In this document: positions 3,991 through 53,421 of the stretch, in pieces
Layout: every line of letters starts with the position of its first letter
Numbering within the stretch: the first letter of the stretch is position 1
Source of the DNA: a bacterium
Lineage (GTDB): Bacteria > Hinthialibacterota > Hinthialibacteria > Hinthialibacterales > Hinthialibacteraceae
Length of the DNA stretch: 64,000 nucleotides
Assembly: GCA_963662285.2 (NCBI GenBank)
Contig: CAXXMV010000008.1
Coordinates: forward strand, 320,001-384,000
Reading direction: 5' to 3'
Translations under genes and position numbers: made by a program
Notes under the pieces: model-generated
Told to the model about the DNA's origin: nothing
What the model saw: the letters and a program-made list of their open reading frames with translations, nothing else
The model's database searches: none

Positions 3991-5901
3991 TTAATATAAT
4001 TGCCAATCAGACACAGGCATGGTTTCCAGAGATTGGATGGCATTATAGGCATCGACCAGACCAGCTCCGGAATAGCAATCCGGTCCTTCCAGTTCGATAT
4101 CAATAGCCGTCTGTTTCAGGGTTTCAAGTAGTTTATCCGGCGTAAGCGAGGGTTGCGCTTCGAGCATTAGAGCCGCGATAGCGGCAAGATTCGCCGCCGC
4201 TGCTGAGGTGCCTTTGAATGTCTCAAAACCAGCTACGCCGGTACTCGTTTCATCCGGCCCGGCAAGGTCGGGTTTTAGTATTAATTGAGGTTCATCAAGA
4301 CGAGTCAAGCCGTCATCAGAGAAAAATACCGGCAAAAAACCTCCTAAAGCGGAAAAAGATTGCACATTTAGAATATCTTCCGGTTCTAGAAATTCTCCAT
4401 TACGCTTGATTTCCTTAATCGGTATGGCAGCTACCGTTGTGACTCCAGGAGCAATCATGTGCCCCATAATGGTACGGTCATGTAGAAGATGTTTATCGTT
4501 TACCTGTTTGGCTTTATTGCCGTTATTGAAGATAGCATACAAATGAAGATTCCGGGGAACGCGCCCTTTTTGATGGTTTATAACTATATTGACGTCACGG
4601 TCGCTGCCTTGATTAAAAAAGACTATCACCTCAACCGGTTCTCCCGATGGATTATCTTCTTCACCTTGAAAATTGACGCTGGATGCCAGGATGTTGTTTT
4701 CGCTAAGCGGCAAAATTTCATCAGAGGTCAAGTATAAATCAAGATCAGACTCCGCGCCAATTCCTTCGGCGAATACGCCGCCATAAGGCTCATCCCAATG
4801 CAAGGTAATTGCAACAGAAGACAAGTGGGGCATATGAATAGATAAATGAGTATCTGATGATAATCCGCAAGCTTTGCCAAAATCGTGAAAATCATTACCG
4901 TTAGGCGGAAAACTATGATCATTAACAGAACTTACATCTGTAAATAACCGGTCATGTCCATTATCTCCGAAATTCCCCGCAGCAGTAAAATACGGCGCTC
5001 CATTAGCAACGGCTTCCATGGCCGCCAAAGCTATCGGACCATTTTGATAAATCGGTTCCTGCAAAAAATTAATGTCATCCACCAGGATATCACATTCATA
5101 TCCGGGATCATTCCATAATTTTCTGATATTATCAGCGAAGACGGAGTAATTATATCTAACTGCGGCGAAAGAAAAATCAGCGCCGGGCGCGAGGTCATGA
5201 ATCAATTCCATCATGGCGGCGCCTTCATCATCACCAAAACCATCGCCCTCATCAATAATCTTGATATTTACGGGTAAATCCAGTTTCATTTGTGATGAAG
5301 TTCCCAACAGGAAACCGTTAAACATTCGGCCCGTTTTCGACCGATCAGCAATACTATCGCTGAGGACGCCAATCCTGATTCCTTCACCACTCAAGTTAAA
5401 TATAGAACGCGCTTGAGCGGCGTTAATCGACGTATCCGCTTCATTTTCAATCGAACCGGCAAAACTTACGGCATACGGCTCTGTGCTTATGCCGATTATA
5501 TCTGACCTTTGAACAATTTCCTCAAATTGATAAGGGTCATAACACCGGACAACCAGTTGATGTAGATTACCGAATGAATATTCACCGACTATATCTAAGT
5601 CTGCGTTGGTGCAATCGTTAATAAGATCAGGAGAAATACTCCTGGCGCCGATAATGCATTGCAATAAACCATCTCTAATAGCGTGAGAAGCATAGCGAAT
5701 AAAAGCATTCTCGACAGTCTCATTACTATTTAGAGCATGCCTGATTTTTAATAAATCACTACTGAGTTTAGTTAAATTTCGATTACCATCGCAAAGAGAA
5801 TCAATTTTCGGATTAATTTTCGAATCAATAGATGCAAAAACTAAAGCATTCTCAAGAAGCAATCCTATTAACAATAGAATCAGAAATGACGCATATTTCA
5901 T
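3991..5901 (-). CDS. Secreted S8/S53-like serine peptidase with short C-terminal tail (PVSDWQLY)
   Basis: Signal peptide from ATG 5901 (MKYASFLILLLIGLLL). Motifs IGVLSDS, DEGAAM..IHDLAPGA, AAGN, KPDLAGPD, GTSAAA and GAGLVDA. Confidence 0.85.
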   Translation of the reverse strand: MKYASFLILLLIGLLLENALVFASIDSKINPKIDSLCDGNRNLTKLSSDLLKIRHALNSNETVENAFIRYASHAIRDGLLQCIIGARSISPDLINDCTNADLDIVGEYSFGNLHQLVVRCYDPYQFEEIVQRSDIIGISTEPYAVSFAGSIENEADTSINAAQARSIFNLSGEGIRIGVLSDSIADRSKTGRMFNGFLLGTSSQMKLDLPVNIKIIDEGDGFGDDEGAAMMELIHDLAPGADFSFAAVRYNYSVFADNIRKLWNDPGYECDILVDDINFLQEPIYQNGPIALAAMEAVANGAPYFTAAGNFGDNGHDRLFTDVSSVNDHSFPPNGNDFHDFGKACGLSSDTHLSIHMPHLSSVAITLHWDEPYGGVFAEGIGAESDLDLYLTSDEILPLSENNILASSVNFQGEEDNPSGEPVEVIVFFNQGSDRDVNIVINHQKGRVPRNLHLYAIFNNGNKAKQVNDKHLLHDRTIMGHMIAPGVTTVAAIPIKEIKRNGEFLEPEDILNVQSFSALGGFLPVFFSDDGLTRLDEPQLILKPDLAGPDETSTGVAGFETFKGTSAAAANLAAIAALMLEAQPSLTPDKLLETLKQTAIDIELEGPDCYSGAGLVDAYNAIQSLETMPVSDWQLY

Positions 5902-6290
5902 TATAAATGCCTCAAAAATCATAAACAAATTGCCGGGTGATTAGGTGTTTACAGTGAATTCATCACCCAGTCAACCAGAATGAGCGCCGTCATAATTATA
6001 TTTTAAGCCTGTTTGACTATATCGCAAAAGACGACAAAAGACCAATTATTCGGAGTTAATGAATATAAAAACAATAACCATCAAGATGAAAAATAATATT
6101 ATGCATCCCTTATTATGCAAAAAAAAGTCAGGTAATATAATCCCGTTTGTAAAGTTATAGTGTAATAATTGTCTATTATAAAGGAAAACACTTTCTTCAG
6201 ACAACAATATCTTGTGTTTCAGTCTTAATTTGTTATATTATTCTTAATATATTTTGTCGCTTTTTATTAAACTGCTAACTGGAGCGTATT

Positions 6291-7103
6291 ATGGTCGAAT
6301 GGCGTATATATGGCTGCGGCTCTCCTTCATCATCTCTTTCTACTCAAAGCAGTTATGAAATTGCCGATGGAAAAAACCGTCTTCACATTGATCTTGGACC
6401 CGGTGGTATATATCACCGTTGTTTACGCGAAGGTTCCATCGAAGCCGCGATAAACTCCATCCAGAACATTCTTATCACCCACAGTCATCCAGACCATTAT
6501 TTCGACTTAGCCCGCCTTTATGTGGCTTGGATGTATACTCCGGGCTTCAAACCTCAAAACCGCGTTTCTCTTTACGCCACTTCTGAAACTATGCATGAGA
6601 TCAAAAAAGTAATGATCAATGCACGCCTGGAAGGTGGTTTTGAAAAAGCTTTCGATACTCATATTATTGATATTGATAAGCCGGTTCAAATAGATGATTT
6701 CACAGTCACTGCAAAAACATCGCATCATATAGAAGGTTCCAACGGCGTATGGGTGGAAACTCCATCAGGAAAAAATATCGGTTTCACTAGTGATACAGGA
6801 TTCAATGAAGACCTGTTTTCTATATGGAAAAACATTGATCTCTTAATCTCTGAATGCTGCTTCGTTGATCTGGAAACTCCTTACCATCTCCATTTAGGAC
6901 AAGTACAGGAAATGGCTGGTAAAATAAATCCTGAATGCCTTCTCATGGTTCATTTCTATCCAGATATGGAGAGATTGCCCGACAAGGATATTCTCAAGGC
7001 TATCTCACAAAAATATCACGGTACGACCTATATCGGACATGACGGACTGCTCGTTAAATGGGACGCTGCAAGCAAAACCTGGATTACAGATAAGATGTTC
7101 TAG
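6291..7103 (+). CDS. MBL-fold metallo-hydrolase (RNase Z-like)
   Basis: THSHPDH, IDLGPG, TSDTG, SEC and HFYP motifs. Confidence 0.85.
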   Translation: MVEWRIYGCGSPSSSLSTQSSYEIADGKNRLHIDLGPGGIYHRCLREGSIEAAINSIQNILITHSHPDHYFDLARLYVAWMYTPGFKPQNRVSLYATSETMHEIKKVMINARLEGGFEKAFDTHIIDIDKPVQIDDFTVTAKTSHHIEGSNGVWVETPSGKNIGFTSDTGFNEDLFSIWKNIDLLISECCFVDLETPYHLHLGQVQEMAGKINPECLLMVHFYPDMERLPDKDILKAISQKYHGTTYIGHDGLLVKWDAASKTWITDKMF

Positions 7104-7120
7104 GAATACTATCCCACTAA

Positions 7121-7918
7121 TCAACAATTCAGTTCACCCCTCAAAACAGTAACCGCCTGACCGCTAATCACAACCCGATCTCCATCTATCCTAACTCCAA
7201 CCACTCCACCACGCGCCGATGCTTGATAACCAGTAAGTTGATCTTTACCTAACTGTTCACACCAATATGGCGCCAGACAGCAATGTGCAGAACCCGTAAC
7301 CGGGTCCTCATTCACTCCAGCCAGTGGAGCGAAAAAGCGTGAAACAAAGTCATACTCTTCACTCTCTGATTTTGCAGTAACAATAAGACCACGCATTTCG
7401 ACTGAAGCAAGAAGGTTAAAATCTGGTTTTAAGGATCGCACTGCCTCTTCGCTATCAACCACAATCATATAATCCATCCGGTTCTTCAATATCTCAACTT
7501 TTTCTGCAGAGACGCCAAGCGCTTCAAGCAATACAGCAGGATATTCAACCGTTTCACCGGGTTCAGCAGGAAAATCCAGATTAATCCAATCGCCATTTTT
7601 GCTAGCAGTTAAAATACCGCTTCTGGTATGAAAACGAATTTCGTCAGAAACCGCCGCCTCTCTTAGTTCATACAAAACGTGGGCGCTGGCCAGCGTGGCA
7701 TGACCGCAAAGATCAACTTCAAAAGCGGGAGTAAACCAACGCAGGTTATACCCATCATCCACCTTGATCAGAAAGGCTGTCTCCGACAAATTCATTTCCC
7801 GGGCGATATTCTGCATCCATACATCATCCCGTGTTTCTTGCATGATGCAAACCGCCGCCGGATTACCTGAAAAAGGTTTATCTGTAAACGCGTCTACCTG
7901 TATGATTGATTGATTCAC
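7121..7918 (-). CDS. PhzF family isomerase
   Basis: VDAFTDKPFSGNPAAV, NLSETAF, EVDLCGHATLA and EDPVTGSAH motifs. Confidence 0.95.
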   Translation of the reverse strand: MNQSIIQVDAFTDKPFSGNPAAVCIMQETRDDVWMQNIAREMNLSETAFLIKVDDGYNLRWFTPAFEVDLCGHATLASAHVLYELREAAVSDEIRFHTRSGILTASKNGDWINLDFPAEPGETVEYPAVLLEALGVSAEKVEILKNRMDYMIVVDSEEAVRSLKPDFNLLASVEMRGLIVTAKSESEEYDFVSRFFAPLAGVNEDPVTGSAHCCLAPYWCEQLGKDQLTGYQASARGGVVGVRIDGDRVVISGQAVTVLRGELNC

Positions 7919-7933
7919 TATTCATCTTCTCCA

Positions 7934-8431
7934 TTATGCTTCCGCTGCCAGTTGATCTAAACTATCACCTGTTAAACGGTACAAATCACATTCAGCAATA
8001 GGATTAGCTCCAAGTTTTTTATAGAAATTAATCGCTGGTTCATTCCAATTCAGAACAGTCCATTCCAGTCGCCCATAGCTGCGATCAGTAACTAACTGAG
8101 CCAGATAAATCAACAAAGCGCGGCCAATGCCCTTGCTCCTGCACTCTGGTTTGACGAATAAATCTTCCAGATGGATTCCGGGAGTTCCCGCGAAAGTTGA
8201 AATACAGGTATAAAAAAAAGCAAAACCAACCGGGGCGCCATCATAGTATGCTAACACCGCCTCCGCGCAGGGATGCTCGCCAAAAAGAGCGTCACGTATA
8301 TTGTCTTCAGTCGCGGTCAGTTTATCTAAATTGTTCTCAAATTCAGCCAGGTCATGAATAAATTGATATACCAGGGATACATCATCTATTCTAGTTTGTC
8401 TTATTTCCACTTCATTGATAGTTAATTCCAT
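7934..8431 (-). CDS. GNAT N-acetyltransferase (diamine acetyltransferase-like)
   Basis: LEDLFVKPECRSKGIG and RLEWTVLNWNEPAINFY; likely start ATG 8431. Confidence 0.9.
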   Translation of the reverse strand: MELTINEVEIRQTRIDDVSLVYQFIHDLAEFENNLDKLTATEDNIRDALFGEHPCAEAVLAYYDGAPVGFAFFYTCISTFAGTPGIHLEDLFVKPECRSKGIGRALLIYLAQLVTDRSYGRLEWTVLNWNEPAINFYKKLGANPIAECDLYRLTGDSLDQLAAEA

Positions 8432-8488
8432 ATTCAGCCTAACGCTTTCAATTATTCTTAAGTACTTTTCCAAAACCTATCAATCATT

Positions 8489-9763
8489 CTAGTACAGCAA
8501 ATACTTGTCTCTTACCAAAAGAAATTGATTAACGCCTTTATTAGTCGTCTTCATAATAAATTGAAAATCTTTTCCCTCACCAATCAAGGTGCGTAACGAC
8601 TCATCACCCCATAATCGATCCATAAAACTTAAGGTCTTGTATTGCTGGGGATAAAGCGAATGCGCCGCGCATAGTAGAGCGACTGCAAGTTCAATAGGTC
8701 TTAACTTGTCTTGATCAGTGATGGTAAAACGCAATCCATGACATAGCTTATCCTTATATTTGGGATTCTCCGATTTGCCGGGGATGCTCTTAGGCGTAAA
8801 TTCAATAACCTTGGCAGATATTCCAGATAACAACTTATCAGGAACCGCGTCAAGCCATTTCTGACCATCAATAAATGGCGCCCCTATTATAAGAAATGGA
8901 TCATCTGTACCCCGGCCTTCAGACAGGTTCGAGCCTTCAAATAAACAAAATCCCGGATAGATAACAGCCGTATCCAGCGATGGCATATTGGGAGACGGCG
9001 CAATCCATGACATGCCCGTCTGATCATAGTGCATTGCGCGCGTATAATTCTTCATTGGAATAACCGTTAAATCCGCGTTAATCGAAAATCCGGCGTAACT
9101 CTCTTGATTCATCAATTGGGCTAATTCACCTACCGTCATGCCATAACGTATAGGCAGCGGCATCACACCTACAAAACTGGTGTAGGCTGGATTAGTAATA
9201 GCTCCTTCAACCCGTACGGCGCCGACCGGGTTGGGACGATCCAATACGATTATAGGGATGCCTTCCCGCTCCGCCGCACACAAAGCCAGAAACATGGTTG
9301 ATATATAAGTATAAAATTTAACGCCTACATCCTGCATGTCATAAATCAATACATCAACATTACTCAGCATTTCATGAGTCGGAACGCGGGTATCACCATA
9401 AAGGCTATAGATCGGGATGCCCTTAATATCAGTTTGCTCAATAGTCGCGCCGGCCGAACTATCGCCCGTAAAGCCATGCTCCGGGCCGAATAACGCAGTA
9501 ATTTTGGCATGTTGGCTTAACACAGATACAATCGACCGTCCCTCGCTATCAACTGATGTATGATTGGCGATAATGCCAATCCGTTTGTTTTTTATCAGAT
9601 CAGATTTCTCTTCAACAAGACGTTCTAATCCCAAAATTACTCTTGTATCGGCAAAAGCGTTTAATGAAAAACACAAAACAATATTGACAAGAATTGATGC
9701 CATGGTTAATCCAAAATAACGGTTGTTGATGATTTTGATAAATAATCTATTCATGATCTTCAC
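8489..9763 (-). CDS. namZ: Exo-beta-N-acetylmuramidase NamZ (DUF1343) family
   Basis: NHTS, LFGPEHG, DMQDVGVKFYTY, VLDRPNP, PSPNMP and SEGRGT motifs; hydrophobic N-terminus. Confidence 0.9.
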   Translation of the reverse strand: MKIMNRLFIKIINNRYFGLTMASILVNIVLCFSLNAFADTRVILGLERLVEEKSDLIKNKRIGIIANHTSVDSEGRSIVSVLSQHAKITALFGPEHGFTGDSSAGATIEQTDIKGIPIYSLYGDTRVPTHEMLSNVDVLIYDMQDVGVKFYTYISTMFLALCAAEREGIPIIVLDRPNPVGAVRVEGAITNPAYTSFVGVMPLPIRYGMTVGELAQLMNQESYAGFSINADLTVIPMKNYTRAMHYDQTGMSWIAPSPNMPSLDTAVIYPGFCLFEGSNLSEGRGTDDPFLIIGAPFIDGQKWLDAVPDKLLSGISAKVIEFTPKSIPGKSENPKYKDKLCHGLRFTITDQDKLRPIELAVALLCAAHSLYPQQYKTLSFMDRLWGDESLRTLIGEGKDFQFIMKTTNKGVNQFLLVRDKYLLY

Positions 9764-9899
9764 TTCCTTAAGTTATGATTACAAACCAAAAATGCCGGTT
9801 GGGCTTAAATCTAACATAAATTATGCCACAATTGCATCATGATCAAATCAATTGTATTAGTGTCATACACAAAAAGTATATAGGATAAGAGCTGTTTCA

Positions 9900-16546: not shown

Positions 16547-19312
16547 ATGATTCGTAACGATTTAAAAACATTAACTCACCGAATGTCTACTTCTTGGATT
16601 TTTGAAAAACGTTTTTGGGCGACGGGTTGTTTGATGCTGTGTTTGACGATTATACAAGCATTCGCTCAGGATACGCTTAGTTGGGAATCAGAAAAATTCG
16701 GTCCATTCGATATGCAAGAGATTGAATTGACGTTCAATTCCGATTCGCATTATTACGAGGGATCAACCCATATCATGTTCCCATATCTCACCAATTCCAA
16801 CACGATTGGCTTTTTCGTGTTCGATGGCGAACTTATATACAATAAGGTTTTTGATCGATTCCAACATCTTTATATTTATGCACAAGGTCTAAACGTGCCG
16901 ATTGGAACAACGGGAGGCGTTTTATATTCTCTTAGCGTCGGTTACGATTACGCTCCCCCCTCGCCTCCTGCCAATCCTTGTGGAGGTAAACAGCCCTGCT
17001 GTTATGCTGTTTGTTACACCTGTCCGCCTACGTATCTTATAACTGGAACAGCTACAATCACTGCGGGACAAGGAATTCCAACCGGAATCGCCCAATCAGT
17101 CTACCCTTTATCCTTTGATAATGAAATCGTTTTTAACAATAGCACAAATTTCACCATGGCTGGTAAAGCGTTGGTCTTTGGACACGAAACAGGAGATAAT
17201 GGATATCTAAACTATTATGATGGAATAATACATTTCCGTGCAAATGTTAATTATAACGCCATGTTCGATACGGTAACGAGCATGACATTCAATTCTCTGC
17301 ACGATATTTCCGGTACGGCGAATGGAACATTACATACACCAGAACTTCCGGTGATCGGCAGCAGGGATATTGGCAATGTCGAAGCGGATATTGACGAAAA
17401 TGGTTTTTCTGGATGTATTCACATTCCCGTTCCCGGTATTCCAAAAAAAATCTGTACTCCCGGCGCTTGCGTAATGAGTATTTGCACGCCAAAAAAATGC
17501 GTGCCGAACCCGGCGTATTACACTATTCCCGTAAATTTCAAAATGACTAACACTGGAGAATTCTCTGTCTTTAAAAAATTGGAGCGCTCCAAACCGTGGG
17601 AATTTTCCGCTCAGCAACTGGCTCAGATCGACGATCAAGGCAAAGGGATCGTCTTTATGTCTAACTGGCGCAGCATTGATATAAGTTCCACACAAGGAGA
17701 GAATCAGCGATTCCAAGTTCTCCCTAACGCGGATCAAGTCACAACCCTGGAAATATCAGAAGGCTTGCCCGCCGTTATTTTCCGAATTGGATTCACCAAT
17801 GAAAACGCGTCTGAAGTCTCCGCCATCCTGACTTTTCCAGATGGAACGCAATGGAACCTGAAAGACGGCTTGAATGCGGAATTTGAAGAAAACAAAGGTT
17901 TCTCTTTGTGGAATCCAGAAGGGAAAGACGCTTCTTTCTTCGTGCGCAATCCAGAGGCTGGCTCTTACACTATAACAATTCAGAATGGAGATGAATTAGG
18001 TGATTTCAGCTTTGAGGCGTTGGCGCAAAATCATCTTCCCAATGTTGATATTAAATCAGTTGAACCTACGGATGATTCCGGTGTGTACCGGATTGAATGG
18101 ATCGATTACGATCCCGACGATAACGCGGAAGTGGGAATTTATTTAGATACTGACCGGAAAGGGCGCGATGGCCGTCTCGTGGCCACTATCGAAGAAGATC
18201 ATCCTGATAACGTGTTTCTACTGGACGTTAATGAATTGGATATCCCGCCGGATTGGTATTATGTCATGCTGAAGATAAAAGACGGCGTTAATCCGGTTGA
18301 TTACGAGTATGCTTTAACTCCAATCCACGTCGCCAATCCCAATGCGCCTTCGCCAGTAACAAATATAGCCGTTAACGCTGGTGACCGTGAATTCACGCTG
18401 CAATGGGAACTAGTCGAAGATTCAGACATCACTCAATACGAGGTTCTTTATACATCGATCATGGAGCCGGATTCATTTACTCCAATTAGATGGTTGCCTT
18501 CAGATGTGAATAAGTTGACGGTCACCGGTCTGGATAACGGATATCCGGTATTAGTAACTGTTCGCGCTGTCAACCAAGCCGGATTGGCTTCTGAAATCAC
18601 CACTATTCTCCAAGTTGTAACCCAATCCGCTACAGGGCGCTCCCACCCGGTAATCATCTCCGAACCGGTAACAACCGCCGCCGTGGGAGAAACATATATA
18701 TATTTCCCGCAATTTTTTGACGCGGACATCCATCATTTCGCCAAACCGCTGCCGAACGGGGAAACGGAATACGTGGATCCATACGTGTGGACGCTGTTGG
18801 AAGGTCCAGAAGGTATGGTGATGGATCAGGGACGCTTCCTGCTCTGGACGCCCACCGAAGCTCAACTGGGCGAGCATAATATCGTGATTCAATTAACGGA
18901 TCAATACGCTCTCGACGGTGCGGATGAAGATCACGGCGGCGGGATTCAGGAATTCACTATCCTGGCGCAAGAGTTCTATCCCATCACCAGCCAATCCCAG
19001 CATCCGTTTGAATTTCTGTCATATCCAAATCTCATTGCCTTTGAAGGCGAAACATACACATATCAGCCAATCCTGAACGCGGCGGAAGATCAAGTTAAGT
19101 TTGAGTTAATCATGGGACCGGAAGGTATGACCATATCCGCATCCGGCGCCTTGGAATGGACCGTTCCAGCGAACGCCAAAGGCTCTAAGGTTTTCATACT
19201 AGCTACAGTGGATGGCGAATACAAGGTGGAACAAGAATTCTTTTTGGGAACGATCACAGAAGCGAACACGCTTCATTCTTCTATCGTAGATACTTGGAAC
19301 CAGATGAAATAA
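16547..19312 (+). CDS. Large secreted/surface protein with Cys-rich loops, Fn3 and two cadherin/He_PIG-like Ig domains; C-terminal tail SSIVDTWNQMK
   Basis: Signal peptide ending AFA-Q; Fn3 (APSPVTN..LQW..YEV..VTGLDNG..VRAVN); Ig repeats (GETYIY..GPEGM..LLWTP and GETYTY..GPEGM..LEWTVP). Confidence 0.75.
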   Translation: MIRNDLKTLTHRMSTSWIFEKRFWATGCLMLCLTIIQAFAQDTLSWESEKFGPFDMQEIELTFNSDSHYYEGSTHIMFPYLTNSNTIGFFVFDGELIYNKVFDRFQHLYIYAQGLNVPIGTTGGVLYSLSVGYDYAPPSPPANPCGGKQPCCYAVCYTCPPTYLITGTATITAGQGIPTGIAQSVYPLSFDNEIVFNNSTNFTMAGKALVFGHETGDNGYLNYYDGIIHFRANVNYNAMFDTVTSMTFNSLHDISGTANGTLHTPELPVIGSRDIGNVEADIDENGFSGCIHIPVPGIPKKICTPGACVMSICTPKKCVPNPAYYTIPVNFKMTNTGEFSVFKKLERSKPWEFSAQQLAQIDDQGKGIVFMSNWRSIDISSTQGENQRFQVLPNADQVTTLEISEGLPAVIFRIGFTNENASEVSAILTFPDGTQWNLKDGLNAEFEENKGFSLWNPEGKDASFFVRNPEAGSYTITIQNGDELGDFSFEALAQNHLPNVDIKSVEPTDDSGVYRIEWIDYDPDDNAEVGIYLDTDRKGRDGRLVATIEEDHPDNVFLLDVNELDIPPDWYYVMLKIKDGVNPVDYEYALTPIHVANPNAPSPVTNIAVNAGDREFTLQWELVEDSDITQYEVLYTSIMEPDSFTPIRWLPSDVNKLTVTGLDNGYPVLVTVRAVNQAGLASEITTILQVVTQSATGRSHPVIISEPVTTAAVGETYIYFPQFFDADIHHFAKPLPNGETEYVDPYVWTLLEGPEGMVMDQGRFLLWTPTEAQLGEHNIVIQLTDQYALDGADEDHGGGIQEFTILAQEFYPITSQSQHPFEFLSYPNLIAFEGETYTYQPILNAAEDQVKFELIMGPEGMTISASGALEWTVPANAKGSKVFILATVDGEYKVEQEFFLGTITEANTLHSSIVDTWNQMK

Positions 19313-41822: not shown

Positions 41823-41838
41823 ATTTGAAAGAAATTCC

Positions 41839-43143: not shown

Positions 43144-43164
43144 CGTTTTAACCAATCAACCCAA

Positions 43165-45069: not shown

Positions 45070-45678
45070 CTAATGCTGCCCGTGGTTCGGAGGAAAGCGC
45101 CCTGCATAATGCTTGTCATCCAACAAAACGTAAATATTGGTCGGATTGCCTTCCCAGAATACGATTTCTCCAATGCTATAGAGACCATTGGTTGAATCAT
45201 AACTATGGTATGGATATTTGTTAAAAAGAATTTTCGGTTGAAACCAGTATATAACTAATGCATGAAGTTTTGATGGACCAGTGGAACTTAGGGAATAGGC
45301 CGTAATACGGCTTTGAGCAGATACGATGCGCTCATGAGCGTAGCCATACCAATAAGGACGCCCGGAACCTTTCAAAAACGGGTCTTCAGGAACGCTGGAG
45401 ATATAGGAGACTGGCGTAGTCAGCCATGACAGAACTGATGAGGGAATTGTTTTCAATGAAGAGGAGACGACGCCATAGGGCGCATAACCATTATGATCCG
45501 CGCGGTAAAGTTCCTGGGCGGATATTAGAGCGTGAATATCAGAGACCGAACGCGCAATATTAGCCCTGATCCGCGCATTCAAAAAACTAGGGATGGCAAT
45601 CGCCGCCAGGATGCCAATGATGGCGACGACTATCAGTAATTCCAAAAGCGTAAACGCCCTGATGCGCCCTGTGCTCAT
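45070..45678 (-). CDS. Type IV pilin/T2SS pseudopilin-like protein
   Basis: RA|FTLLELLIVVAIIGILAAIAIP with Glu5; LTTPVSYISSVPEDPF. Confidence 0.9.
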   Translation of the reverse strand: MSTGRIRAFTLLELLIVVAIIGILAAIAIPSFLNARIRANIARSVSDIHALISAQELYRADHNGYAPYGVVSSSLKTIPSSVLSWLTTPVSYISSVPEDPFLKGSGRPYWYGYAHERIVSAQSRITAYSLSSTGPSKLHALVIYWFQPKILFNKYPYHSYDSTNGLYSIGEIVFWEGNPTNIYVLLDDKHYAGRFPPNHGQH

Positions 45679-45707
45679 ATTTTCAGATTAACCTCCCGGT
45701 TATACGT

Positions 45708-45745
45708 TCCCTCTCCCGCCGGGAGAGGGCAAGGGTGAGGGGGCG
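45708..45745. repeat. BoxC-like palindrome, subtype B
   Basis: tccctctcccgccgggagagggcaagggtgagggggcg. Confidence 0.75.
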
Positions 45746-45854
45746 AAATAAACAACCTCATTAAACCAAAAATCAAAATCTATAACATCCAGGGGGGATG
45801 CGAATAATCCACATCCCCCCATAAACATTAATCGTTAACTCATGTCTCAGAATA

Positions 45855-46970: not shown

Positions 46971-47224
46971 TCTTCAATTCTCCTATCAAGATTTTTTGGT
47001 TATTTGATTATCTATTATTAGAAGCTCTGCTGTCAACCATTAACTTATTACAATTACGTCAACCTTTAGTTAACATTTTATTTATATATCATACTCCAGT
47101 CCGCCGCTTAATGGATTGAATATTATTACTATATGATCATTTATGGGTAGCAACTTACCAGGGAATCTAATAGTATTATATAAAAATTAAAGATTCAAAT
47201 CCAAGCATATTATAAGGATGGGAA

Positions 47225-48247: not shown

Positions 48248-48307
48248 AGTAGTATATGAAATGTAAAAAAATGAATTCAGTGAAATGGAATAAGGAGGTT
48301 ATTTTTT

Positions 48308-49343
48308 ATGTTTAAGAATATCAAAACCATGTTAGTAGTCGGGATAACGATTGGTCTTTGCTTCAGCGGGTGCGGAGGCGGAGGAGAAAGCGAAACTGGA
48401 AGCGGTAAAGTGATTGAATTATCCTACAGTATATTCTTCCCACCAACGCATATTCAATGCATCACAGCAGACGCATGGGCCAAAGAGATCGAAAAAACGC
48501 ACTGATGGACGCGTAAAGATCGCCATGTATCCTGGAGGATCATTATCCAAGGCGCCTCAAGTTTATGAGGGCGTGGTTAATGGCATCTCTGATATCGGAA
48601 TGAGCTGTTTCGCTTATACCCGCGGCCGCTTCCCCTTACTGGAAGGACTGGATTTACCTGTAGGTTATCCCAATGGATTAACGGCCACCAAAGCCGCCAA
48701 CGAAATGATCAAAAAACACAATCCTAAAGAAGTGGCGGATACTCACGTACTTTATATCCATGCTCATGGTCCTGGATTATTAGCCTCTAAAAAACCTGTA
48801 CGCTCTCTAGAGGATATCAAAGGATTGAAAGTTCGGGCGACTGGACTTTCCTCCAAAATCGTCGCCAGCCTGGGCGGTTCTCCTGTCGCTATGAGCCAGC
48901 CGGAAACTTATGAAGCATTACAACGCGGCGTGGTTGAAGCCACCTTCTGTCCAATTGAAACGCTAAAGGGATGGAAGCAAGGCGAAGTTATCGACTATGT
49001 GATTGATACATCCGTCATTGGATATACCACATCTATGTTCGTCGTTATGAACAATGATAAATGGAATAGCCTTCCAGCCGATATCCAGAAGATATTCGAC
49101 GAAGTATGCGCCGAATGGATTATAAGACACGGCGAAGCATGGGATGAAGCTGATGCTCAGGGCCGGGAATTCGTTAAAGAACTCAAACGGGAAACCATCA
49201 CTCTTCCGGTTGAAGAACAAGCCAAATTAAAAACAGCTGTTGAACCTATTCTTAGCGAATATGTCAAAACCACTACTGAGAAAGAATTGCCGGGAGACGT
49301 ATTCCTAAAGGATCTACAAGACATTCTGGCCAAAGGCAAATAG
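48308..49343 (+). pseudogene. dctP: TRAP substrate-binding lipoprotein DctP, split by a +1 frameshift (possible sequencing error)
   Basis: The lipoprotein-signal ORF 48308-48505 and body ORF 48414-49343 join if one A of the A6 run at 48492-48497 is removed ([13 protein letters not shown]). Confidence 0.85.
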
Positions 49344-49363
49344 TACTCTGATCAACAATAAAT

Positions 49364-49413
49364 GCCCTCACTCCAGTCCCCTCTCCCCACGGGAGAGGGC
49401 TAGGGTGAGGGCG
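49364..49413. repeat. BoxC-like palindrome between dctP and dctQ
   Basis: ccctctccccacgggagagggctagggtgagggc is the exact reverse complement of the copy at 40692-40725. Confidence 0.8.
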
Positions 49414-49454
49414 GAATTAAATTAGTTGAACTCAATATTAAAATCAGGCAATCC

Positions 49455-49952
49455 ATGAATTCTATTCTTAATACGTTATCCACCCTGGTAAAAGGACTGG
49501 TATTTTTTTTAACGGTGATATCCGGATTGTGCATCCTCCTCATGATGACGATTACCTGTCTGGATATCATTCTACGTCTTTTCGGCCATCCCATTACCGG
49601 CGTCTATGATATAATAAAACTCACCAGCGCAATCACCATTTGCTGCGCCTTACCATACACTACGGCGGTAAAGGGTCATGTCTCAGTTGAGTATTTTTTC
49701 CACAAACTAAACCGTAGGAACCGCATTATAGTAGATACGATCACCCGCGTTCTCACCATGTCCTTTTTCGGCCTTCTGGCCTATCGCTGTTTCTATTATG
49801 GATTAGCGCTCTACAACAGTGGAGAAGCAACCGCAACATTACAAATCCCGACTTTCTGGGTAATGTACGTGATCTCATTTTCTTGCGTTATTGTTGTTTT
49901 TGTTATCTTCGAGCACCTGCTTCACCCCGGTAAAGAAATGATTAAGCCATGA
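49455..49952 (+). CDS. dctQ: TRAP transporter small permease
   Basis: 4 TM segments; D..LR..G.P and GHVSV motifs. Confidence 0.9.
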   Translation: MNSILNTLSTLVKGLVFFLTVISGLCILLMMTITCLDIILRLFGHPITGVYDIIKLTSAITICCALPYTTAVKGHVSVEYFFHKLNRRNRIIVDTITRVLTMSFFGLLAYRCFYYGLALYNSGEATATLQIPTFWVMYVISFSCVIVVFVIFEHLLHPGKEMIKP

Positions 49953-51250
49953 CTCCTATCGACTTCGGCATCCTAGGTTGCATCCTATTATTTATACTTC
50001 TTGTCAGCAGTATGCCGGTGGCCTTTGTAATGGCCATTACCGGAGCAATCGGATTCACCTTCATCGTCAATCCTCATGCAGCGCTGAGCATGATCACCAG
50101 CGACCTCTATGAGACCATGTCTTCTTACAGTCTGACAGTGATCCCCTTATTCGTATTCATGGGACAGTTGGCCTTTCACGCTGGAATAAGCCGACGGTTG
50201 TTCAACACCGCTTACACCTGGTTGGGCGCATTACCCGGTGGACTGGCTATGGCCACTATTGGCGCCTGCACTGCTTTCGGCGCAATCTGCGGTTCTGGTC
50301 CGGCCACCGCCGCCACTATGGCATCCGTCGCCATACCAGAAATGAAGCGCTATAAATACAGCATGGAATTAGCCAGCGGAGCGGTGGCGTCAGGCGGCGG
50401 CCTGGGAATGCTGATCCCCCCCAGCGTGGTCTTTATCGTATACGCCATCATGACCGAACAATCAGTAGGCAAGTTATTCATCGCCGGAATCATTCCCGGA
50501 ATATTGGTGGCGGTGCTCTTTTGTTTAACCATTTACATAAACTGCAAACGTCGACCCGAACTTGGACCCGCCGGACCCAAAACCACCTGGAAAGAAAAAT
50601 TCATCTCTCTAGGCGGCGTATCAGAAACCTTACTATTATTCATCCTGGTTATGGGCGGCATGTTCCAGGGATTTTTCACGCCGACCGAAGCGGCTGCTGT
50701 GGGAGCAGCGGGCAGCCTGATCATCGTGCTTATCCGTCGCAGCCTATCCTGGAACGCCCTGCTCAAATCACTCAAAGAGACTATCCGCACATCCTGCATG
50801 GTCATTATCATTGTGGCGGGCGCTATCATGTTCGGACGCTTTCTGGCGGTCACGCGCATCCCGTTTGAACTGGCCAACTGGCTAACCAGCCTTCCCCTTC
50901 CCGGTATGGTTATCATGGCTTTCATTATCCTATTCTATATAATTTGCGGCTGTTTTGTGGATGCTCTGGCTTTAATCCTTTTAACCATTCCCATCTTTTT
51001 CCCGGTGGTAGTGTCCTTAAATTATAATCCGATATGGTTTGGCGTTATAATTGTTATCGTAACCCAGATGGGAGTAATCTCACCTCCGGTTGGGGTAAAT
51101 GTCTATGTTGTTAGTGGAATCGAGCGGGATATCCCACTACAAACTGTTTTTAAGGGAACTATGCCATTTTTGCTTGCGCTAGTAGTAGCCGCCATTATTC
51201 TGGTTGCTTTTCCCCAATTATCCCTGTTCCTGCCGGGATTGGTGCAATAA
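49949..51250 (+). CDS. dctM: TRAP transporter large permease
   Basis: IPLFVFMG, GMLIPPS, FTPTEAAAVG and ISPPVG motifs. Confidence 0.95.
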   Translation: MTPIDFGILGCILLFILLVSSMPVAFVMAITGAIGFTFIVNPHAALSMITSDLYETMSSYSLTVIPLFVFMGQLAFHAGISRRLFNTAYTWLGALPGGLAMATIGACTAFGAICGSGPATAATMASVAIPEMKRYKYSMELASGAVASGGGLGMLIPPSVVFIVYAIMTEQSVGKLFIAGIIPGILVAVLFCLTIYINCKRRPELGPAGPKTTWKEKFISLGGVSETLLLFILVMGGMFQGFFTPTEAAAVGAAGSLIIVLIRRSLSWNALLKSLKETIRTSCMVIIIVAGAIMFGRFLAVTRIPFELANWLTSLPLPGMVIMAFIILFYIICGCFVDALALILLTIPIFFPVVVSLNYNPIWFGVIIVIVTQMGVISPPVGVNVYVVSGIERDIPLQTVFKGTMPFLLALVVAAIILVAFPQLSLFLPGLVQ

Positions 51251-51277
51251 AACCTGAAGCATCAAGGAGGAATATTA

Positions 51278-51781
51278 ATGCTAAACCTTGATATACAACT
51301 CCATCCATCACAACGTATATTATTCTGTACTGATTTCTCGGAAAATTCTCAATTGGCGTTCAAATACGCCATTGATGCCGCACAGCGCTTCCCCGGTTCC
51401 ACGCTTCATTTACTGCATGTTATTCCAGAAGTCGAAGCGCAGTTCTGGAAAACCTACATCTATGAAATCGATGGCATTGATGATAAAGCCAAACAGGATA
51501 TTAATGAGAAAATCACCACGGATTATCTTTCCCGCATCCCTCGGGATATTAAATCACAAGTAGAAGTCCGCATGGGAAAAGACTACCAGACTATTCTCGA
51601 ATACGCCGGGGAAATCGACTGCGACCTCATCATCATTGGACGCCAGGGTCAATCAAATTTCAAAAAAGTACTATTCGGAAATGTCACAGAAAAAGTAACC
51701 CGGCACGCCAAATGCCCCATACTGGTAATTCCATTAATCTATGAGACCAAACTGAAAACACAGCCCGACAAAACGAAATAG
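51278..51781 (+). CDS. Universal stress protein (TeaD-like context)
   Basis: ILFCTDFSENS, DLIIIG..G and LFGNVTEKV.RHAKCPILVI motifs. Confidence 0.92.
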   Translation: MLNLDIQLHPSQRILFCTDFSENSQLAFKYAIDAAQRFPGSTLHLLHVIPEVEAQFWKTYIYEIDGIDDKAKQDINEKITTDYLSRIPRDIKSQVEVRMGKDYQTILEYAGEIDCDLIIIGRQGQSNFKKVLFGNVTEKVTRHAKCPILVIPLIYETKLKTQPDKTK

Positions 51782-51819
51782 ACGCACTATACTATTACAA
51801 TAAATCTCGATCAATAAAG

Positions 51820-51859
51820 TCCCCTCTCCCACCACCGGGAGAGGGCTAGGGTGAAGGCG
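51820..51859. repeat. BoxC-like palindrome, subtype B
   Basis: tcccctctcccaccaccgggagagggctagggtgaaggcg. Confidence 0.75.
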
Positions 51860-51921
51860 AAGTAAAATAACTTCCCGACATACGCATTATCAGTTATTAG
51901 AATTTTATAAGGATAAAAAAA

Positions 51922-53421
51922 ATGCAGCGCTACGCCAATTATTCGTTAACAATCTTTTCCATGATCATTGTCTTAGTTTCATGCGCCATCATGCTTCCAG
52001 CAGCAGAACTTCCTATAGAAGCTTCTCACGACGTAATCGTGGTTGGCGCGGGTTCTTCGGGATTAACCTCCGCCTATTACCTCAAGGATTACGATGTCAA
52101 AATCCTGGAACGTAACGATTATACAGGCGGCAGTACCATGTCAGCTGTTTATGAAGACATCTCCTATCCCATCGGCGTGGCGAAAACAACATTGTCCACT
52201 CTTTTGCTGGAGATTGCTGGTGATTTAGGATTACATCCAATTCCTATCCCAAACCACGACATTTCTTTCTTCAACGATGGAACTATTTATTATGGTTTAG
52301 AAGGTCTCATGACGACCTTTATTGAAGAGGGAGGCCTGGAAGAGTGGGGACGTTTTTATGTGACATCGAAGGCAGCATATTTTTTGAATTACTATTCTAA
52401 CCCTGAAACAGCTGAATTGGATCAGATTACCGCCAAACAGTGGTTTGACAATGAGCAATTCGCTCCCCTGTTCTACAAGGTATACGATGCCAAAGCCCGT
52501 CTATTGTTTGGCGCCGGGTTGGAGGAGGTTTCAGCATTAAGCCTGTTACCAATTATATTTCAAGACGCCGATTCGTTACCGATTGGTTTGGGTGCGGATG
52601 ACATAAATAATGATCCCATCAGTGAATCAGAATCCGCAACGTATTTCACTTTCCCATCAGGAATGACGGAATACACCAACGCCATTGCCGAAGCGCTGAG
52701 CGATAAAATCCAACTCAATTCAAACGTCGAATCAATTACCAAAGATGGCGAGTGGATGAGGGTAATCTACAGCGATCCTGATGGGACGCAGCATGCGCTG
52801 CAATCGCGTGCGGTTATTCTCGCTATTCCGGCATATATCGTCGGTTATCTGGCGCCGGAAATATTAAGTGAAGAACAAAAAACACTGCTCAATCAGATTG
52901 AGTATTCTTCATATTGTATTGTCTCTCTTTTTGGCGATGAACCAATCTTTGGAGACGCCTTTGATCTTCAGTTTACTGATGGAATGTTGGTCACCGATCT
53001 GATCGACCAGACCTGGGCGTTGCGAAAAAATGAAATAATGCCGGAAGGTTCTGATGTACAGATATATAGCGCCATTATTGCGCCAACCAGTTATCAGGAT
53101 CAAAGTTTCAAGGAACTAACCCAGGAAGAACTTATCGAAAAAGTTTATACCGATCTGGAAACATTTGACCCAGATGTACGAACCAAAGTAGATGAATACC
53201 GTGTAGATTGGTTCTCCAGTGGGGCGCCCGTCATGACGGTTGGCGCCCGCCAACGGCTGGCGCGCTTGCAGGAAATCACCAATGGTTCATTGGCGCTTTG
53301 CGGGTCATACATGATTTATCCCGACTTCAACGCAACAATCACATCAGGCTACAACGCCGCGCAGCAGACAATCCGGGTAATCAAAGGTCAATCGGCTATC
53401 GAGTTTTTTGAACTTTATTGA
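51922..53421 (+). CDS. Secreted flavin-containing amine oxidase-like protein with C-terminal tail SAIEFFELY
   Basis: Sec-like signal peptide; VIVVGAGSSG, LER..TGG, P.GM, VILAIP and ATITSGYNAA motifs. Confidence 0.82.
   Translation: MQRYANYSLTIFSMIIVLVSCAIMLPAAELPIEASHDVIVVGAGSSGLTSAYYLKDYDVKILERNDYTGGSTMSAVYEDISYPIGVAKTTLSTLLLEIAGDLGLHPIPIPNHDISFFNDGTIYYGLEGLMTTFIEEGGLEEWGRFYVTSKAAYFLNYYSNPETAELDQITAKQWFDNEQFAPLFYKVYDAKARLLFGAGLEEVSALSLLPIIFQDADSLPIGLGADDINNDPISESESATYFTFPSGMTEYTNAIAEALSDKIQLNSNVESITKDGEWMRVIYSDPDGTQHALQSRAVILAIPAYIVGYLAPEILSEEQKTLLNQIEYSSYCIVSLFGDEPIFGDAFDLQFTDGMLVTDLIDQTWALRKNEIMPEGSDVQIYSAIIAPTSYQDQSFKELTQEELIEKVYTDLETFDPDVRTKVDEYRVDWFSSGAPVMTVGARQRLARLQEITNGSLALCGSYMIYPDFNATITSGYNAAQQTIRVIKGQSAIEFFELY

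What the first reader, a model, noticed from the sequence alone, without database searches (positions are those of the whole stretch)
3991..53421. Shared short C-terminal tail on three unrelated secreted proteins: candidate uncharacterised protein-sorting signal
Seen: the subtilase (3991-5901, minus) ends ETMP-VSDWQLY*, the FAD oxidase (51922-53421) ends GQSA-IEFFELY*, and the Fn3/Ig protein (16547-19312) ends HSSI-VDTWNQMK*. They align as small/polar residues then [VI]-x-x-[WF]-x-x-[YM] at the extreme C-terminus. All three have N-terminal signal peptides and unrelated folds. In each, the tail follows the natural end of the last domain via a short linker. Other exported proteins here (DUF5696, lyase-like, PQQ propeller, DUF5060, PHP, sialidase) lack it. 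Established: PEP-CTERM, LPXTG and GlyGly-CTERM signals have a TM helix plus basic tail, and T9SS CTDs are about 70-80 aa folded domains. This tail of about 10 aa fits neither. Inference: it is a lineage-specific second-step export or surface-anchoring tag, with the machinery encoded elsewhere. The 921-aa match is the weakest, and three examples is a small set.
Basis: partly seen in the sequence, partly recalled or inferred. Interest (0 to 1): 0.85.

Follow-up and report, generated by a model that had tools for sequence, protein, structure and literature searches.

The report
Short tryptophan tail on secreted proteins
About one in thirty proteins of this uncultivated bacterium, nearly all of them exported, ends in the same nine-residue tryptophan-containing tail, which looks like an undescribed address label whose reader is still unknown.

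Summary
By my own gene calls, 186 of 5344 proteins end in T-x-V-x-[DNE]-W-x-[LIM]-[YFH] (153 at the very end, 33 with one or two more residues); 0.05 are expected by chance. They fall in 99 unrelated sequence clusters, and 174 of 186 have a signal-peptide-like start. Conservation covers only the last nine residues and is selected at the amino-acid level. The scan found this tail before (e1-4719819 in this genome, e1-5096131 in another). New here: (1) the tail also occurs in a second candidate phylum, Sumerlaeota. (2) Some Sumerlaeota genomes carry instead a second tail, VP(A/V)ELSxFx(A/V)(D/E), and the two did not share a genome. (3) Distant homologues of the subtilase carry known sorting signals at the same position. 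(4) Tail genes lie next to genes of an expanded GspG-like pseudopilin family more often than other exported-protein genes do, and one cargo-pilin pair is syntenic in 8 of 8 genomes. Best reading: a post-Sec sorting or docking tag, possibly read by type II secretion-like pilins. Six paper searches found no description.

The parts
3991..5928 (-). It is the one full tag-bearing gene of the window.
   Evidence: Peptidase_S8. Matrix score 24.1. AF2 model has mean pLDDT 86.8.
3994..4020 (-). The nine-residue tag M-P-V-S-D-W-Q-L-Y. The stop codon is at 3991-3993.
   Evidence: In the AF2 model residues 628-636 have pLDDT under 50 and no secondary structure, after the last helix at 618-626. The closest homologue (82% identity) ends TPVHDWPLY.
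51922..53421 (+). Flavin amine-oxidase-like gene with a borderline tail.
   Evidence: Matrix score 5.3.
53392..53418 (+). Tail S-A-I-E-F-F-E-L-Y, with F in place of W at -4. Membership is doubtful.
   Evidence: Homologues P0123 and P0124 have SSV(D/K)YFDRY followed by 7 more residues.
16547..19312 (+). Fn3/Ig-domain protein gene. It is not a member; its tail is family-specific.
   Evidence: The 13 homologues read end (W/F)-x-x-(L/M)-(K/R/Q).
19283..19309 (+). Tail I-V-D-T-W-N-Q-M-K, with W at -5. It has a different register from the tag.
   Evidence: scores -28.1 and -11.0.
45070..45678 (-). A member of the expanded GspG-like pseudopilin family (202 aa). Here it lies between two exported-protein genes that have no tag.
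   Evidence: prepilin motif flag. Family described.

Best explanation
The tail is a portable nine-residue address or docking tag, T-x-V-x-[DNE]-W-x-[LIM]-[YFH]-COOH. It is added to the end of otherwise unrelated proteins that have already crossed the inner membrane through Sec. It stays unfolded and is read by a protein of the cell envelope. That reading either passes the cargo across the outer membrane or holds it at the cell surface. The most likely reader, though only a lead, is the type II secretion-like (type IV filament) machinery that is greatly expanded in these bacteria. The proposed contact is with GspG-like pseudopilins, by analogy with TcpF, whose disordered end is bound by a pilin of the Vibrio cholerae pilus. 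Shown: the tag exists, is selected at the protein level, is modular, is tied to exported proteins, occurs in two phyla in two mutually exclusive forms, and lies near pseudopilin genes more often than expected. Inferred: that it is a sorting or docking signal at all. Speculative: that pilins read it.
For: (1) Enrichment. 186 of 5344 proteins carry the tag against 0.05 expected.
(2) Modularity. Members form 99 blastp clusters, 76 of them singletons, and information content is confined to positions -9 to -1. In a tandem pair of paralogues, the tag is an extension added where the tag-less copy ends...TFAGSxGPAQ versus ...TFAGSQGATPADVGNWSIY.
(3) Protein-level selection. All four Thr codons and at least five Leu codons are used, and all three stop codons. 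Third codon positions carry about 0.05-0.26 bits, except at the invariant Trp codon and the last residue. No DNA is conserved after the stop.
(4) Exported cargo. Signal-peptide-like starts are found in 174/186 members against 2042/5158 others. By a stricter rule the figures are 105/186 against 874/5158, and 101 of 728 strict-signal, no-TM proteins carry the tag. Lipobox-like sites are depleted: 5/174 against 107/1147.
(5) Cargo types. Pfam on 57 of the 186 gave CBM9 x4, S8 x2, LTD+CotH x3, secreted WD40 propellers x3, LRR x2, periplasmic-binding-protein folds x3, an MtrC-like multihaem cytochrome, beta-helix giants x2 and others. 26 of the 57 had no family.
(6) Free end. Residues 628-636 of the subtilase model have pLDDT under 50.
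(7) Positional equivalence. Of 119 homologues of the subtilase, 6 carry the tag and 5 carry a weak form, and all 11 are among the 27 closest. More distant ones end in a CFI-box-CTERM (NCBI's name), in hydrophobic-plus-RRRR ends, or carry PF18962.
(8) Lineage. The DNA pattern gives 66 hits against 1 control in this genome and 13-60 in the 19 other genomes of its family. It gives up to 18 hits against 1 in Sumerlaeota genomes. It stays at background in 12 genomes of other phyla, 12 hits against 5 control, none tag-like.
(9) A second form. VP(A/V)ELSxFx(A/V)(D/E)-COOH occurs in G040, G041, G051 and G057 (14, 7, 13 and 4 hits against 0 control). Those genomes have no canonical hits.
(10) Pilin link. 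25/186 tag genes have an adjacent GspG-like gene against 61/1036 other exported-protein genes (odds ratio 2.5, p 8e-4). 21 of 124 co-directional neighbours of pilin genes carry the tag, against 3.5% of all genes (p 2e-9). The same adjacency is seen for 4 of 23 tag genes in two Sumerlaeota genomes and 3 of 23 genes with the second tail. One cargo-then-pilin pair is syntenic in 8 of 8 genomes across four families, and a second in 7 of 12. None of the 112 pilin-like proteins carries the tag.
(11) Machinery. The genome has 8 secretin genes and at least 3 T2SS-like clusters. It has no exosortase and no T9SS CTD over the cut-off.
(12) Precedent. The TcpF export signal is a disordered end bound by the minor pilin TcpB (PMC10120004; abstract and introduction read).
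Against: No experiment or proteome shows export, anchoring or cleavage. Most tag genes, 161 of 186, have no adjacent pilin gene. Most pilin genes have no tag gene beside them: only 20 of 112 have a co-directional tag neighbour within 300 bp. The pseudopilin family is present in 75 of 75 Sumerlaeota genomes, including those with neither tail, so its presence does not track the tag. The conserved core motifs of the pilins look the same in genomes with either tail (read by eye only). In the second pair the pilin is replaced by another gene in one family of genomes. Some cargo, such as the periplasmic-binding-protein folds, would ordinarily stay in the periplasm. My signal-peptide rules are home-made heuristics, and the lax one also flags 40% of all other proteins. 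Gene calls come from my own crude caller. 30 matrix hits lie 10 or more residues from an end and are unexplained.
Confidence: 0.4

Rival explanations
1. The tag is a surface-retention tag unrelated to pilins. It docks cargo non-covalently onto an outer-membrane protein, S-layer or envelope glycan after secretion by whatever route. The pilin adjacency then only reflects shared loci for secreted proteins.
For: Lipobox depletion (5/174 vs 107/1147) suggests the tag replaces lipid anchoring. Much of the cargo is of binding or adhesin type: LTD+CotH, LRR, WD40, CBM9, MtrC-like cytochrome. Most tag genes have no pilin neighbour. The pilin family does not track the tag.
Against: No candidate receptor was found. 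The neighbour analysis gave no strongly recurrent family other than the pilins; the next families were weak (p about 1e-3 or worse) in this genome, and none recurred in Sumerlaeota loci. The enrichment of pilins next to tag genes exceeds that next to other exported-protein genes.
Confidence: 0.25
2. The tag is a recognition site for an unknown processing enzyme, such as a peptidase or transpeptidase. It would be a stripped-down relative of the signature motifs of tripartite sorting signals and would be cleaved or covalently attached.
For: Homologues in other phyla carry tripartite or other sorting signals at the same position. P at -10 and T at -9 before the core resemble signature motifs such as that of IPTL-CTERM; this resemblance is recalled from memory and was not tested. 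Two exclusive dialects fit co-evolution with one enzyme.
Against: There is no TM helix or basic cluster to hold the substrate at a membrane enzyme. No exosortase was found. No NCBIfam sorting model matches either tail, even at E up to 10.
Confidence: 0.1
3. The tag is a ligand for periplasmic PDZ proteases of the HtrA or Ctp type. It would serve as a degron, an activation signal or a quality-control mark rather than an address.
For: It is a hydrophobic or aromatic C-terminus, and 153 of 186 tags lie at the very end. Of the 32 single extra residues, 18 are E or D, which could mimic a carboxylate. The genome encodes 4 HtrA-like proteases, one S41 protease and RseP.
Against: These PDZ proteins are ordinary and near-universal: the PDZ_2 control search matched all 14 control genomes. 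They therefore cannot explain restriction to two phyla or the two dialects. Tagging 14% of the strict-rule signal-peptide, no-TM set for degradation is implausible. Conservation reaches back to -9/-10, longer than typical PDZ ligands (general knowledge).
Confidence: 0.08
4. The tag is a beta-signal-like end read by BAM or another Omp85 protein, for insertion into or passage through the outer membrane.
For: The terminal residue is aromatic: Y, F or H in 144 of the 152 core members scoring 12 or more.
Against: The hydrophobic pattern (-1, -2, -4, -7) is not the alternating one of OMP ends (pattern recalled from general knowledge). Cargo are soluble enzyme and binding folds. The same genome has a separate class of classical ends: HRFF x11, TYRF x6.
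Confidence: 0.04
5. The tail is a chance or annotation artefact, or a DNA-level repeat overlapping gene ends.
For: None beyond the use of home-made gene calls.
Against: 0.05 are expected against 153 observed. A reversed-pattern control gives 1 against 66. Synonymous codons and all three stops are used, and there is no downstream DNA conservation. The tag is kept in orthologues at 38-82% identity.
Confidence: 0.01

Closest known systems
Export signal of TcpF (and CofJ), read by the minor pilin of a type IVb pilus (Nguyen et al. 2023, PMC10120004; abstract and introduction read)
   Same: Both are short, disordered terminal segments on Sec-exported, folded proteins. In TcpF the signal is portable and specific to its own machinery. 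Here the tag is modular, comes in exclusive dialects, and its genes lie next to pilin-like genes.
   Different: The TcpF signal is N-terminal, serves one exoprotein per system, and has a proven pilin partner and proven cleavage. Here the tag is C-terminal, sits on about 186 proteins per genome, and no partner or cleavage is shown.
Tripartite C-terminal sorting signals (PEP-CTERM/exosortase, LPXTG/sortase, GlyGly-CTERM/rhombosortase, CFI-box-CTERM, IPTL-CTERM)
   Same: Both are C-terminal, lineage-restricted and found on many unrelated signal-peptide proteins. Both occupy the same position in homologous cargo.
   Different: The tag has no TM helix and no basic cluster, and the protein ends three residues after the Trp. 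No exosortase is present and no NCBIfam model matches.
T9SS C-terminal domain (Por_Secre_tail)
   Same: Both are C-terminal tags on secreted and surface proteins of glycan-degrading bacteria, and both are modular.
   Different: The T9SS CTD is a folded domain of about 70-100 residues. Here only 9 residues are conserved, and no CTD scores over the cut-off in the genome.
C-terminal beta-signal of outer-membrane beta-barrel proteins
   Same: Both have an aromatic last residue.
   Different: The hydrophobic spacing differs and the cargo is soluble. Classical ...YRF/...RFF ends exist separately in this genome.
WxL cell-wall-binding domain of Gram-positive bacteria (recalled, not tested)
   Same: Both contain the letters W-x-L near the C-terminus of surface proteins.
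   Different: WxL is a folded domain of well over 100 residues with two such motifs, in monoderm bacteria. Here nothing is conserved upstream of -10.

Membership tests
Tripartite C-terminal sorting signals (PEP-CTERM, LPXTG, GlyGly-CTERM, IPTL-CTERM and the like) | A signature motif followed by a hydrophobic transmembrane stretch | tested here: not met
   The protein ends 3 residues after the conserved W. 178 of 186 members have no hydrophobic 19-mer beyond residue 60.
Tripartite C-terminal sorting signals | A cluster of basic residues at the extreme end | tested here: not met
   The last residue is Y, F or H in 144 of the 152 core members scoring 12 or more. K at -1 occurs in 2 of them.
Tripartite C-terminal sorting signals | A cognate sorting enzyme encoded in the genome | tested here: not met
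   Exosortase PF09721 gave 0 matches in a genome that is 92.5% complete. Sortase and rhombosortase were not searched.
Tripartite C-terminal sorting signals | A match to a curated NCBIfam sorting-domain model | tested here: not met
   No such hit for P0001-P0003 at E up to 0.1, nor for two tail segments and two proteins with the second tail at E up to 10. HMMER filters may drop very weak hits.
T9SS C-terminal domain | A folded C-terminal domain of about 70-100 residues matching PF18962 | tested here: not met
   Information content is about 0 from -45 to -13 and under 0.5 bits from -12 to -10. The genome has one sub-threshold match of 26.1 bits and none over the cut-off.
OMP beta-signal (BAM substrates) | An aromatic last residue | tested here: met
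   Y 96, F 26, H 22 among the 152 core members scoring 12 or more.
OMP beta-signal (BAM substrates) | Alternating hydrophobic residues at -3, -5, -7, -9 on a beta-barrel protein | tested here: not met
   Position -3 is mostly S, M or E and -5 is mostly D, N or E. Cargo folds are soluble enzymes and binding domains. The defining pattern itself is recalled from general knowledge.
PDZ ligands (DegS, Tsp/Ctp type) | A free carboxylate directly after the hydrophobic end | tested here: inconclusive
   153 of 186 tags are at the very end and 33 have 1-2 extra residues. Of the 32 single extra residues, 18 are E or D.
Pilin-bound export signal (TcpF/CofJ type) | A disordered terminal segment on a Sec-exported folded protein | tested here: met
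   Residues 628-636 of the subtilase have pLDDT under 50 after the last helix. Signal-peptide-like starts occur in 174/186 members.
Pilin-bound export signal (TcpF/CofJ type) | N-terminal position on the mature protein, one dedicated exoprotein per system | tested here: not met
   The tag is C-terminal and sits on 186 proteins.
Pilin-bound export signal (TcpF/CofJ type) | Direct binding to a pilin; necessary and sufficient for export | not testable with these tools
   Only gene adjacency and synteny are available. Binding and secretion assays are needed.

The most novel reading that the evidence does not exclude
The tag is the first linear, portable export or display signal for type II secretion-like (type IV filament) machines. 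It would be read by cargo-dedicated members of a family of about 100 GspG-like pseudopilin genes per genome. Tag and reader would have co-evolved into mutually exclusive dialects, the W-type T-x-V-x-D-W-x-L-Y and the F-type VPAELSxFxAD, across at least two candidate phyla.
Probability: 0.22. Interest if true: 0.92.

Novelty: new variant of a known kind. Interest (0 to 1): 0.8.

Why it matters
How folded proteins are chosen for passage across or display on the outer membrane is a long-standing open question. For type II secretion no linear signal is known, and the signals are thought to be composite and structural (PMC7949064, abstract read). Here about 14% of the strict-rule signal-peptide, no-TM proteins of an uncultivated glycan-degrading bacterium share a nine-residue end. 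That end is easy to synthesise, transplant and use as bait. If it is an address label, it defines the surface or secreted proteome of two poorly known phyla from sequence alone. It also gives a handle for finding its reader. If pilins read it, it would explain why these and related bacteria keep around a hundred pseudopilin paralogues. The two exclusive dialects offer a natural specificity-swap experiment.

Tried and rejected
(1) A complex prediction was run between the soluble domain of the pilin next to cargo L031:9046-10371 (alignment A5) and the last 40 residues of tag proteins (alignment A4). The tool returned 'no answer' (score 0.00, controls not folded). This is neither evidence for nor against binding.
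(2) AF2 folding of that pilin domain from a 25-row alignment gave a poor model, mean pLDDT 46. No fold comparison was made.
(3) Phyletic profiling of the pseudopilin family in Sumerlaeota did not discriminate: it is present in 75 of 75 genomes.
(4) The 'tag-negative' Sumerlaeota genomes could not serve as clean negatives, because four of them carry the second tail.
(5) The idea of a PDZ domain on a GspC-like T2SS component was not borne out. The PDZ_2 matches lie in 4 HtrA-like proteases, 1 S41 protease, RseP and one 813-aa protein that I did not scan against Pfam. No PDZ domain was seen in the secretin loci.
(6) The neighbour analysis found no strongly recurrent partner family other than pilins; the next families were weak (p about 1e-3 or worse: small heat-shock-like, FGE-sulfatase-like, regulator-like) and were not pursued. 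Sumerlaeota loci gave none.
(7) A third cargo-pilin pair (L031:4389-5879) had no orthologue in the other 34 genomes and was uninformative.
(8) Literature. Six searches and a term search inside Williams et al. 2022 (PMC9324843: 0 hits for 'C-terminal', 'sorting' and 'secretion system') found no description of the tail. Subscription journals are not covered.
(9) The phylum name rests on NCBI labels of homologues ('Candidatus Hinthialibacter sp.' for P0011) and on the earlier notes, not on a marker-gene tree.

Full report
OBSERVATION. Pfam assigns the proteins to Peptidase_S8, flavin amine oxidase and fn3/He_PIG. No NCBIfam sorting-signal model matches any of them.

To test for more than chance, I laid the whole genome in the script box: 7.29 Mb, 8 contigs, 44% G+C, with the window at C8:320001-384000. 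I called 5344 genes with a simple codon-usage caller of my own; they cover 87.5% of the genome. Tryptophan at position -4 from the end occurs 246 times, 3.0 times expectation. The ending WSLY occurs 24 times against 0.02 expected.

I refined a position matrix on the last 12 residues. Its scores are cleanly bimodal: 153 proteins score 10 or more, against 0.05 expected from 20 random internal 12-mers per protein. A further 32 proteins carry the motif followed by one extra residue (E 13, D 5, others 14), and one carries it followed by two. That makes 186 members, 3.5% of the gene calls. Thirty matrix hits lie 10 or more residues from an end and were not explained.

ANATOMY. Information content is confined to positions -9 to -1: T (2.5 bits), x, V/I (3.0), x, D/N/E (1.2), W (5.3), x, L/I/M (1.7), Y/F/H (2.9). 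There is a weak preference for P at -10. From -45 to -13 there is essentially no information, and this holds with one protein per cluster.

The 186 members fall into 99 blastp clusters, 76 of them singletons. Selection acts on the protein, not the DNA. All four Thr codons, at least five Leu codons and all three stop codons are used. Third codon positions carry about 0.05-0.26 bits, except at the invariant Trp codon and the last residue. The 30 bases after the stop carry at most 0.15 bits.

An AF2 model of the subtilase from a 27-row alignment has mean pLDDT 86.8. Its last helix ends at residue 626. Residues 628-636, which are the tag, have pLDDT under 50 and no secondary structure. The tag is therefore a free extension.

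A tandem pair of paralogues gives a natural control. The upstream copy ends ...TFAGSxGPAQ, while the downstream copy reads ...TFAGSQGATPADVGNWSIY. The tag is appended roughly where the tag-less copy stops.

WHICH PROTEINS. A permissive signal-peptide heuristic flags 174 of 186 members against 2042 of 5158 other proteins (odds ratio 22). A stricter one flags 105 of 186 against 874 of 5158 (odds ratio 6.4). Of the 728 strict-signal, no-TM proteins, 101 carry the tag, which is 14%. Both heuristics are home-made.

Lipobox-like sites are rarer among members: 5 of 174 against 107 of 1147 (p 0.003). No pilin-like protein carries the tag, 0 of 112.

I ran Pfam on 57 of the 186 members, chosen because they lie in the 20 stretches richest in members. 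The results were:
- CBM9 x4
- periplasmic-binding-protein folds x3
- LTD+CotH x3
- WD40 propellers x3
- S8 x2
- LRR x2
- PD40/beta-helix/TIG giants x2
- single cases of S9, CBM11, LamG, FG-GAP, Kelch, DUF3160, DUF1349, FGE-sulfatase, beta-helix, fn3_4, RHS and an MtrC-like multihaem cytochrome
- 26 of the 57 with no family at E 1e-5

THE THREE EXAMPLES. The subtilase scores 24.1 and is a full member.

The FAD oxidase scores 5.3, in the trough between the two modes. Its two nearest homologues have SSV(D/K)YFDRY followed by seven more residues, and the other five have nothing similar. Its status is open.

The Fn3/Ig protein scores -28, or -11 if the last K is ignored. I read 13 homologues in the same family of genomes; none scores above 1. 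They end in a conserved but different tail, (W/F)-x-x-(L/M)-(K/R/Q), with the aromatic at -5. It is not a member. In the window, no other gene call scores above -12.

WHERE ELSE. A degenerate DNA pattern for T-x-V-x-x-W-x-[aliphatic]-[Y/F/H]-stop gives 66 hits in this genome, against 1 for the same pattern read backwards. The genome's phylum holds 35 species genomes, all in one class. The pattern gives:
- 13-60 hits in the 19 other genomes of the same family
- 4-31 hits in the two other families of the order
- 1-18 hits in the remaining three families, with one genome (G001) at 1 against 1

NCBI labels a 60%-identical homologue 'Candidatus Hinthialibacter sp.'. This agrees with the two earlier notes of this scan.

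Of 119 homologues of the subtilase, 6 carry the tag and 5 a weak form, and all 11 are among the 27 closest. Two of those 27 are labelled Sumerlaeota or Sumerlaeia; one of these (P0016) carries the tag and the other (P0020) ends in a divergent form that scores near zero. In genomes whose records are titled Sumerlaeota, the pattern is patchy across 75 species genomes. For example, G101 has 18 against 1, G084, G089 and G090 have 13 against 0, and G035 has 9 against 0, while a run of 18 genomes has 2 hits in all. Twelve genomes of other phyla give 12 hits against 5 control, none tag-like.

More distant homologues of the subtilase end in other sorting signals. These include CFI-box-CTERM (NCBI's name), hydrophobic stretches followed by RRRR, and a Por_Secre_tail. 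The tag therefore occupies the place that known sorting signals occupy in the same cargo family.

A SECOND TAIL. I read loci from 'tag-negative' Sumerlaeota genomes and found another shared ending, (V/I)-P-(A/V)-E-L-S-x-F-x-(A/V)-(D/E)-COOH. Its DNA pattern gives 14, 7, 13 and 4 hits against 0 control in G040, G041, G051 and G057, and 0-2 hits elsewhere. Those four genomes have no canonical hits. In this genome the regex for it finds a single protein, which has no signal-peptide-like start. Twenty-three such proteins were read; most begin with a hydrophobic, signal-peptide-like stretch, by eye.

Both tails share an aromatic at -4 and an aliphatic at -7, and they tend to share P at -10 (strong in the second tail, weak in the first). 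I take them to be two dialects of one system, but this is inference.

The only strongly enriched neighbour family of tag genes is a set of about 112 proteins of about 200 residues. They have a prepilin start, and their consensus resembles GspG: GFTLIELLIVVAIIGILAAIAVPNFLNAQ..., LTTPxxYxSSxPxDPF, S.GPD, SNGxxSxGDI. A profile of their soluble domain finds 6425 cluster representatives in the 1.84-billion-protein library.

An adjacent pilin-like gene is found for 25 of 186 tag genes. The figures are 61 of 1036 for other exported-protein genes (odds ratio 2.5, p 8e-4) and 3.6% for all genes. Seen from the pilins, 21 of 124 co-directional neighbours within 300 bp carry the tag, against 3.5% of genes (p 2e-9). 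Other signal-peptide-like proteins are barely enriched there: 37 of 124, or 30%, against 25% of all genes.

The same adjacency holds for 4 of 23 tag genes in two Sumerlaeota genomes. It also holds for 3 of 23 genes with the second tail.

The pair formed by cargo L031:9046-10371 and the next gene, a pilin, is syntenic in 8 of 8 genomes where the cargo was found. These span four families at 38-49% identity, and the pilin itself has 16 orthologues at 46-67% identity. A second pair is syntenic in 7 of 12 genomes. Of the other five, one lies at a contig end, three genomes of another family have a different gene there, and one has none. A third cargo had no orthologues.

The genome has 8 secretin genes. 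Its secretin loci include three T2SS-like clusters with GspG, J, K, M and D homologues, a Tad cluster and two type IV pilus-like clusters. It has no exosortase and no T9SS CTD over the cut-off.

Against a simple pilin-reader model: most tag genes and most pilin genes are not adjacent to each other. The pilin family is present in 75 of 75 Sumerlaeota genomes whatever their tail.

MECHANISM. The evidence shows a modular, protein-level-selected, unfolded nine-residue end on exported proteins. It is restricted to two candidate phyla, comes in two exclusive forms, and stands where other lineages put sorting signals. The best-supported reading is a post-Sec address or docking tag (my odds about 0.75).

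The closest precedent for how such a tag could work is the export signal of TcpF. That signal is a disordered end bound by the minor pilin TcpB and carried out by pilus extension (PMC10120004; abstract and introduction read). For classical T2SS substrates no linear signal is known (PMC7949064, abstract read).

The rivals are surface docking on an unrelated receptor, processing by an unknown enzyme, PDZ proteases and a BAM-type signal. They are listed with their evidence in the Rival explanations section.

NOVELTY. Six literature searches and a term search in the paper that named the phylum found no description. Supplements and subscription journals were not seen. The scan itself found the tail twice before, in e1-4719819 and e1-5096131.

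It also adds the second exclusive tail, the positional equivalence with known sorting signals, and the quantified and syntenic link to GspG-like pseudopilin genes. I file it as a new variant of the known kind 'C-terminal protein-sorting signal'.

Noticed in passing
Sumerlaeota loci L150, L159, L212-L231 (e.g. L159:201-1511:+ and L159:6154-7944:+): A second shared C-terminal tail, (V/I)P(A/V)ELSxFx(A/V)(D/E)-stop, sits on unrelated proteins, most with signal-peptide-like starts (by eye), in four Sumerlaeota genomes. Those genomes lack the W-type tail.
   Followed up: partly
Window 45070-45678 (-) and about 112 places genome-wide: There is an expanded family of about 200-residue GspG-like pseudopilins. 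A profile of the soluble domain finds 6425 cluster representatives in the public library, and 13 to over 50 matches in every Sumerlaeota genome searched (75 of 75).
   Followed up: partly
G000 loci L143-L149: One genome holds eight secretin genes: three T2SS-like clusters, a Tad cluster, a type IV pilus-like cluster, and two short secretins in tandem. It also has a TPR-bearing 1057-aa secretin in an operon that also holds a FliG homologue and a 620-aa protein with a cohesin domain.
   Followed up: partly
Window 16547-19312 (+) and homologues L191-L203: The Fn3/Ig protein family has its own conserved end, ...NT(L/I)...S...(W/F)-x-x-(L/M)-(K/R/Q). It is distinct from the tag, and its role is unknown.
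   Followed up: partly
G000:C6:437769-439735 (L233/L248) and orthologous loci L234-L244: Tandem paralogues at about 37% identity form a conserved operon, often followed by a pilin gene. The downstream copy carries the tag and the upstream copy ends ...GPAQ without it.
   Followed up: partly
Genome-wide C-termini: Other over-represented endings are HRFF x11 and TYRF x6, which look like classical outer-membrane beta-barrel ends. KASQ x19, DQEV x9, RTSP x7 and LRCE x5 are probably multi-copy gene families.
   Followed up: no
L021:3958-7323:+, L026:9402-10445:+, L036:701-2662:-: WD40 beta-propeller proteins carry the tag, and two of the three have signal-peptide-like starts. This is an unusual fold for exported bacterial proteins.
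   Followed up: no
G000:C8:308293-309246 and three other places: A pair of small proteins (133 and 178 aa, possibly small heat-shock-like judging by their N-termini) recurs beside tag genes. Four of the 5-6 family members lie within two genes of a tag gene.
   Followed up: no
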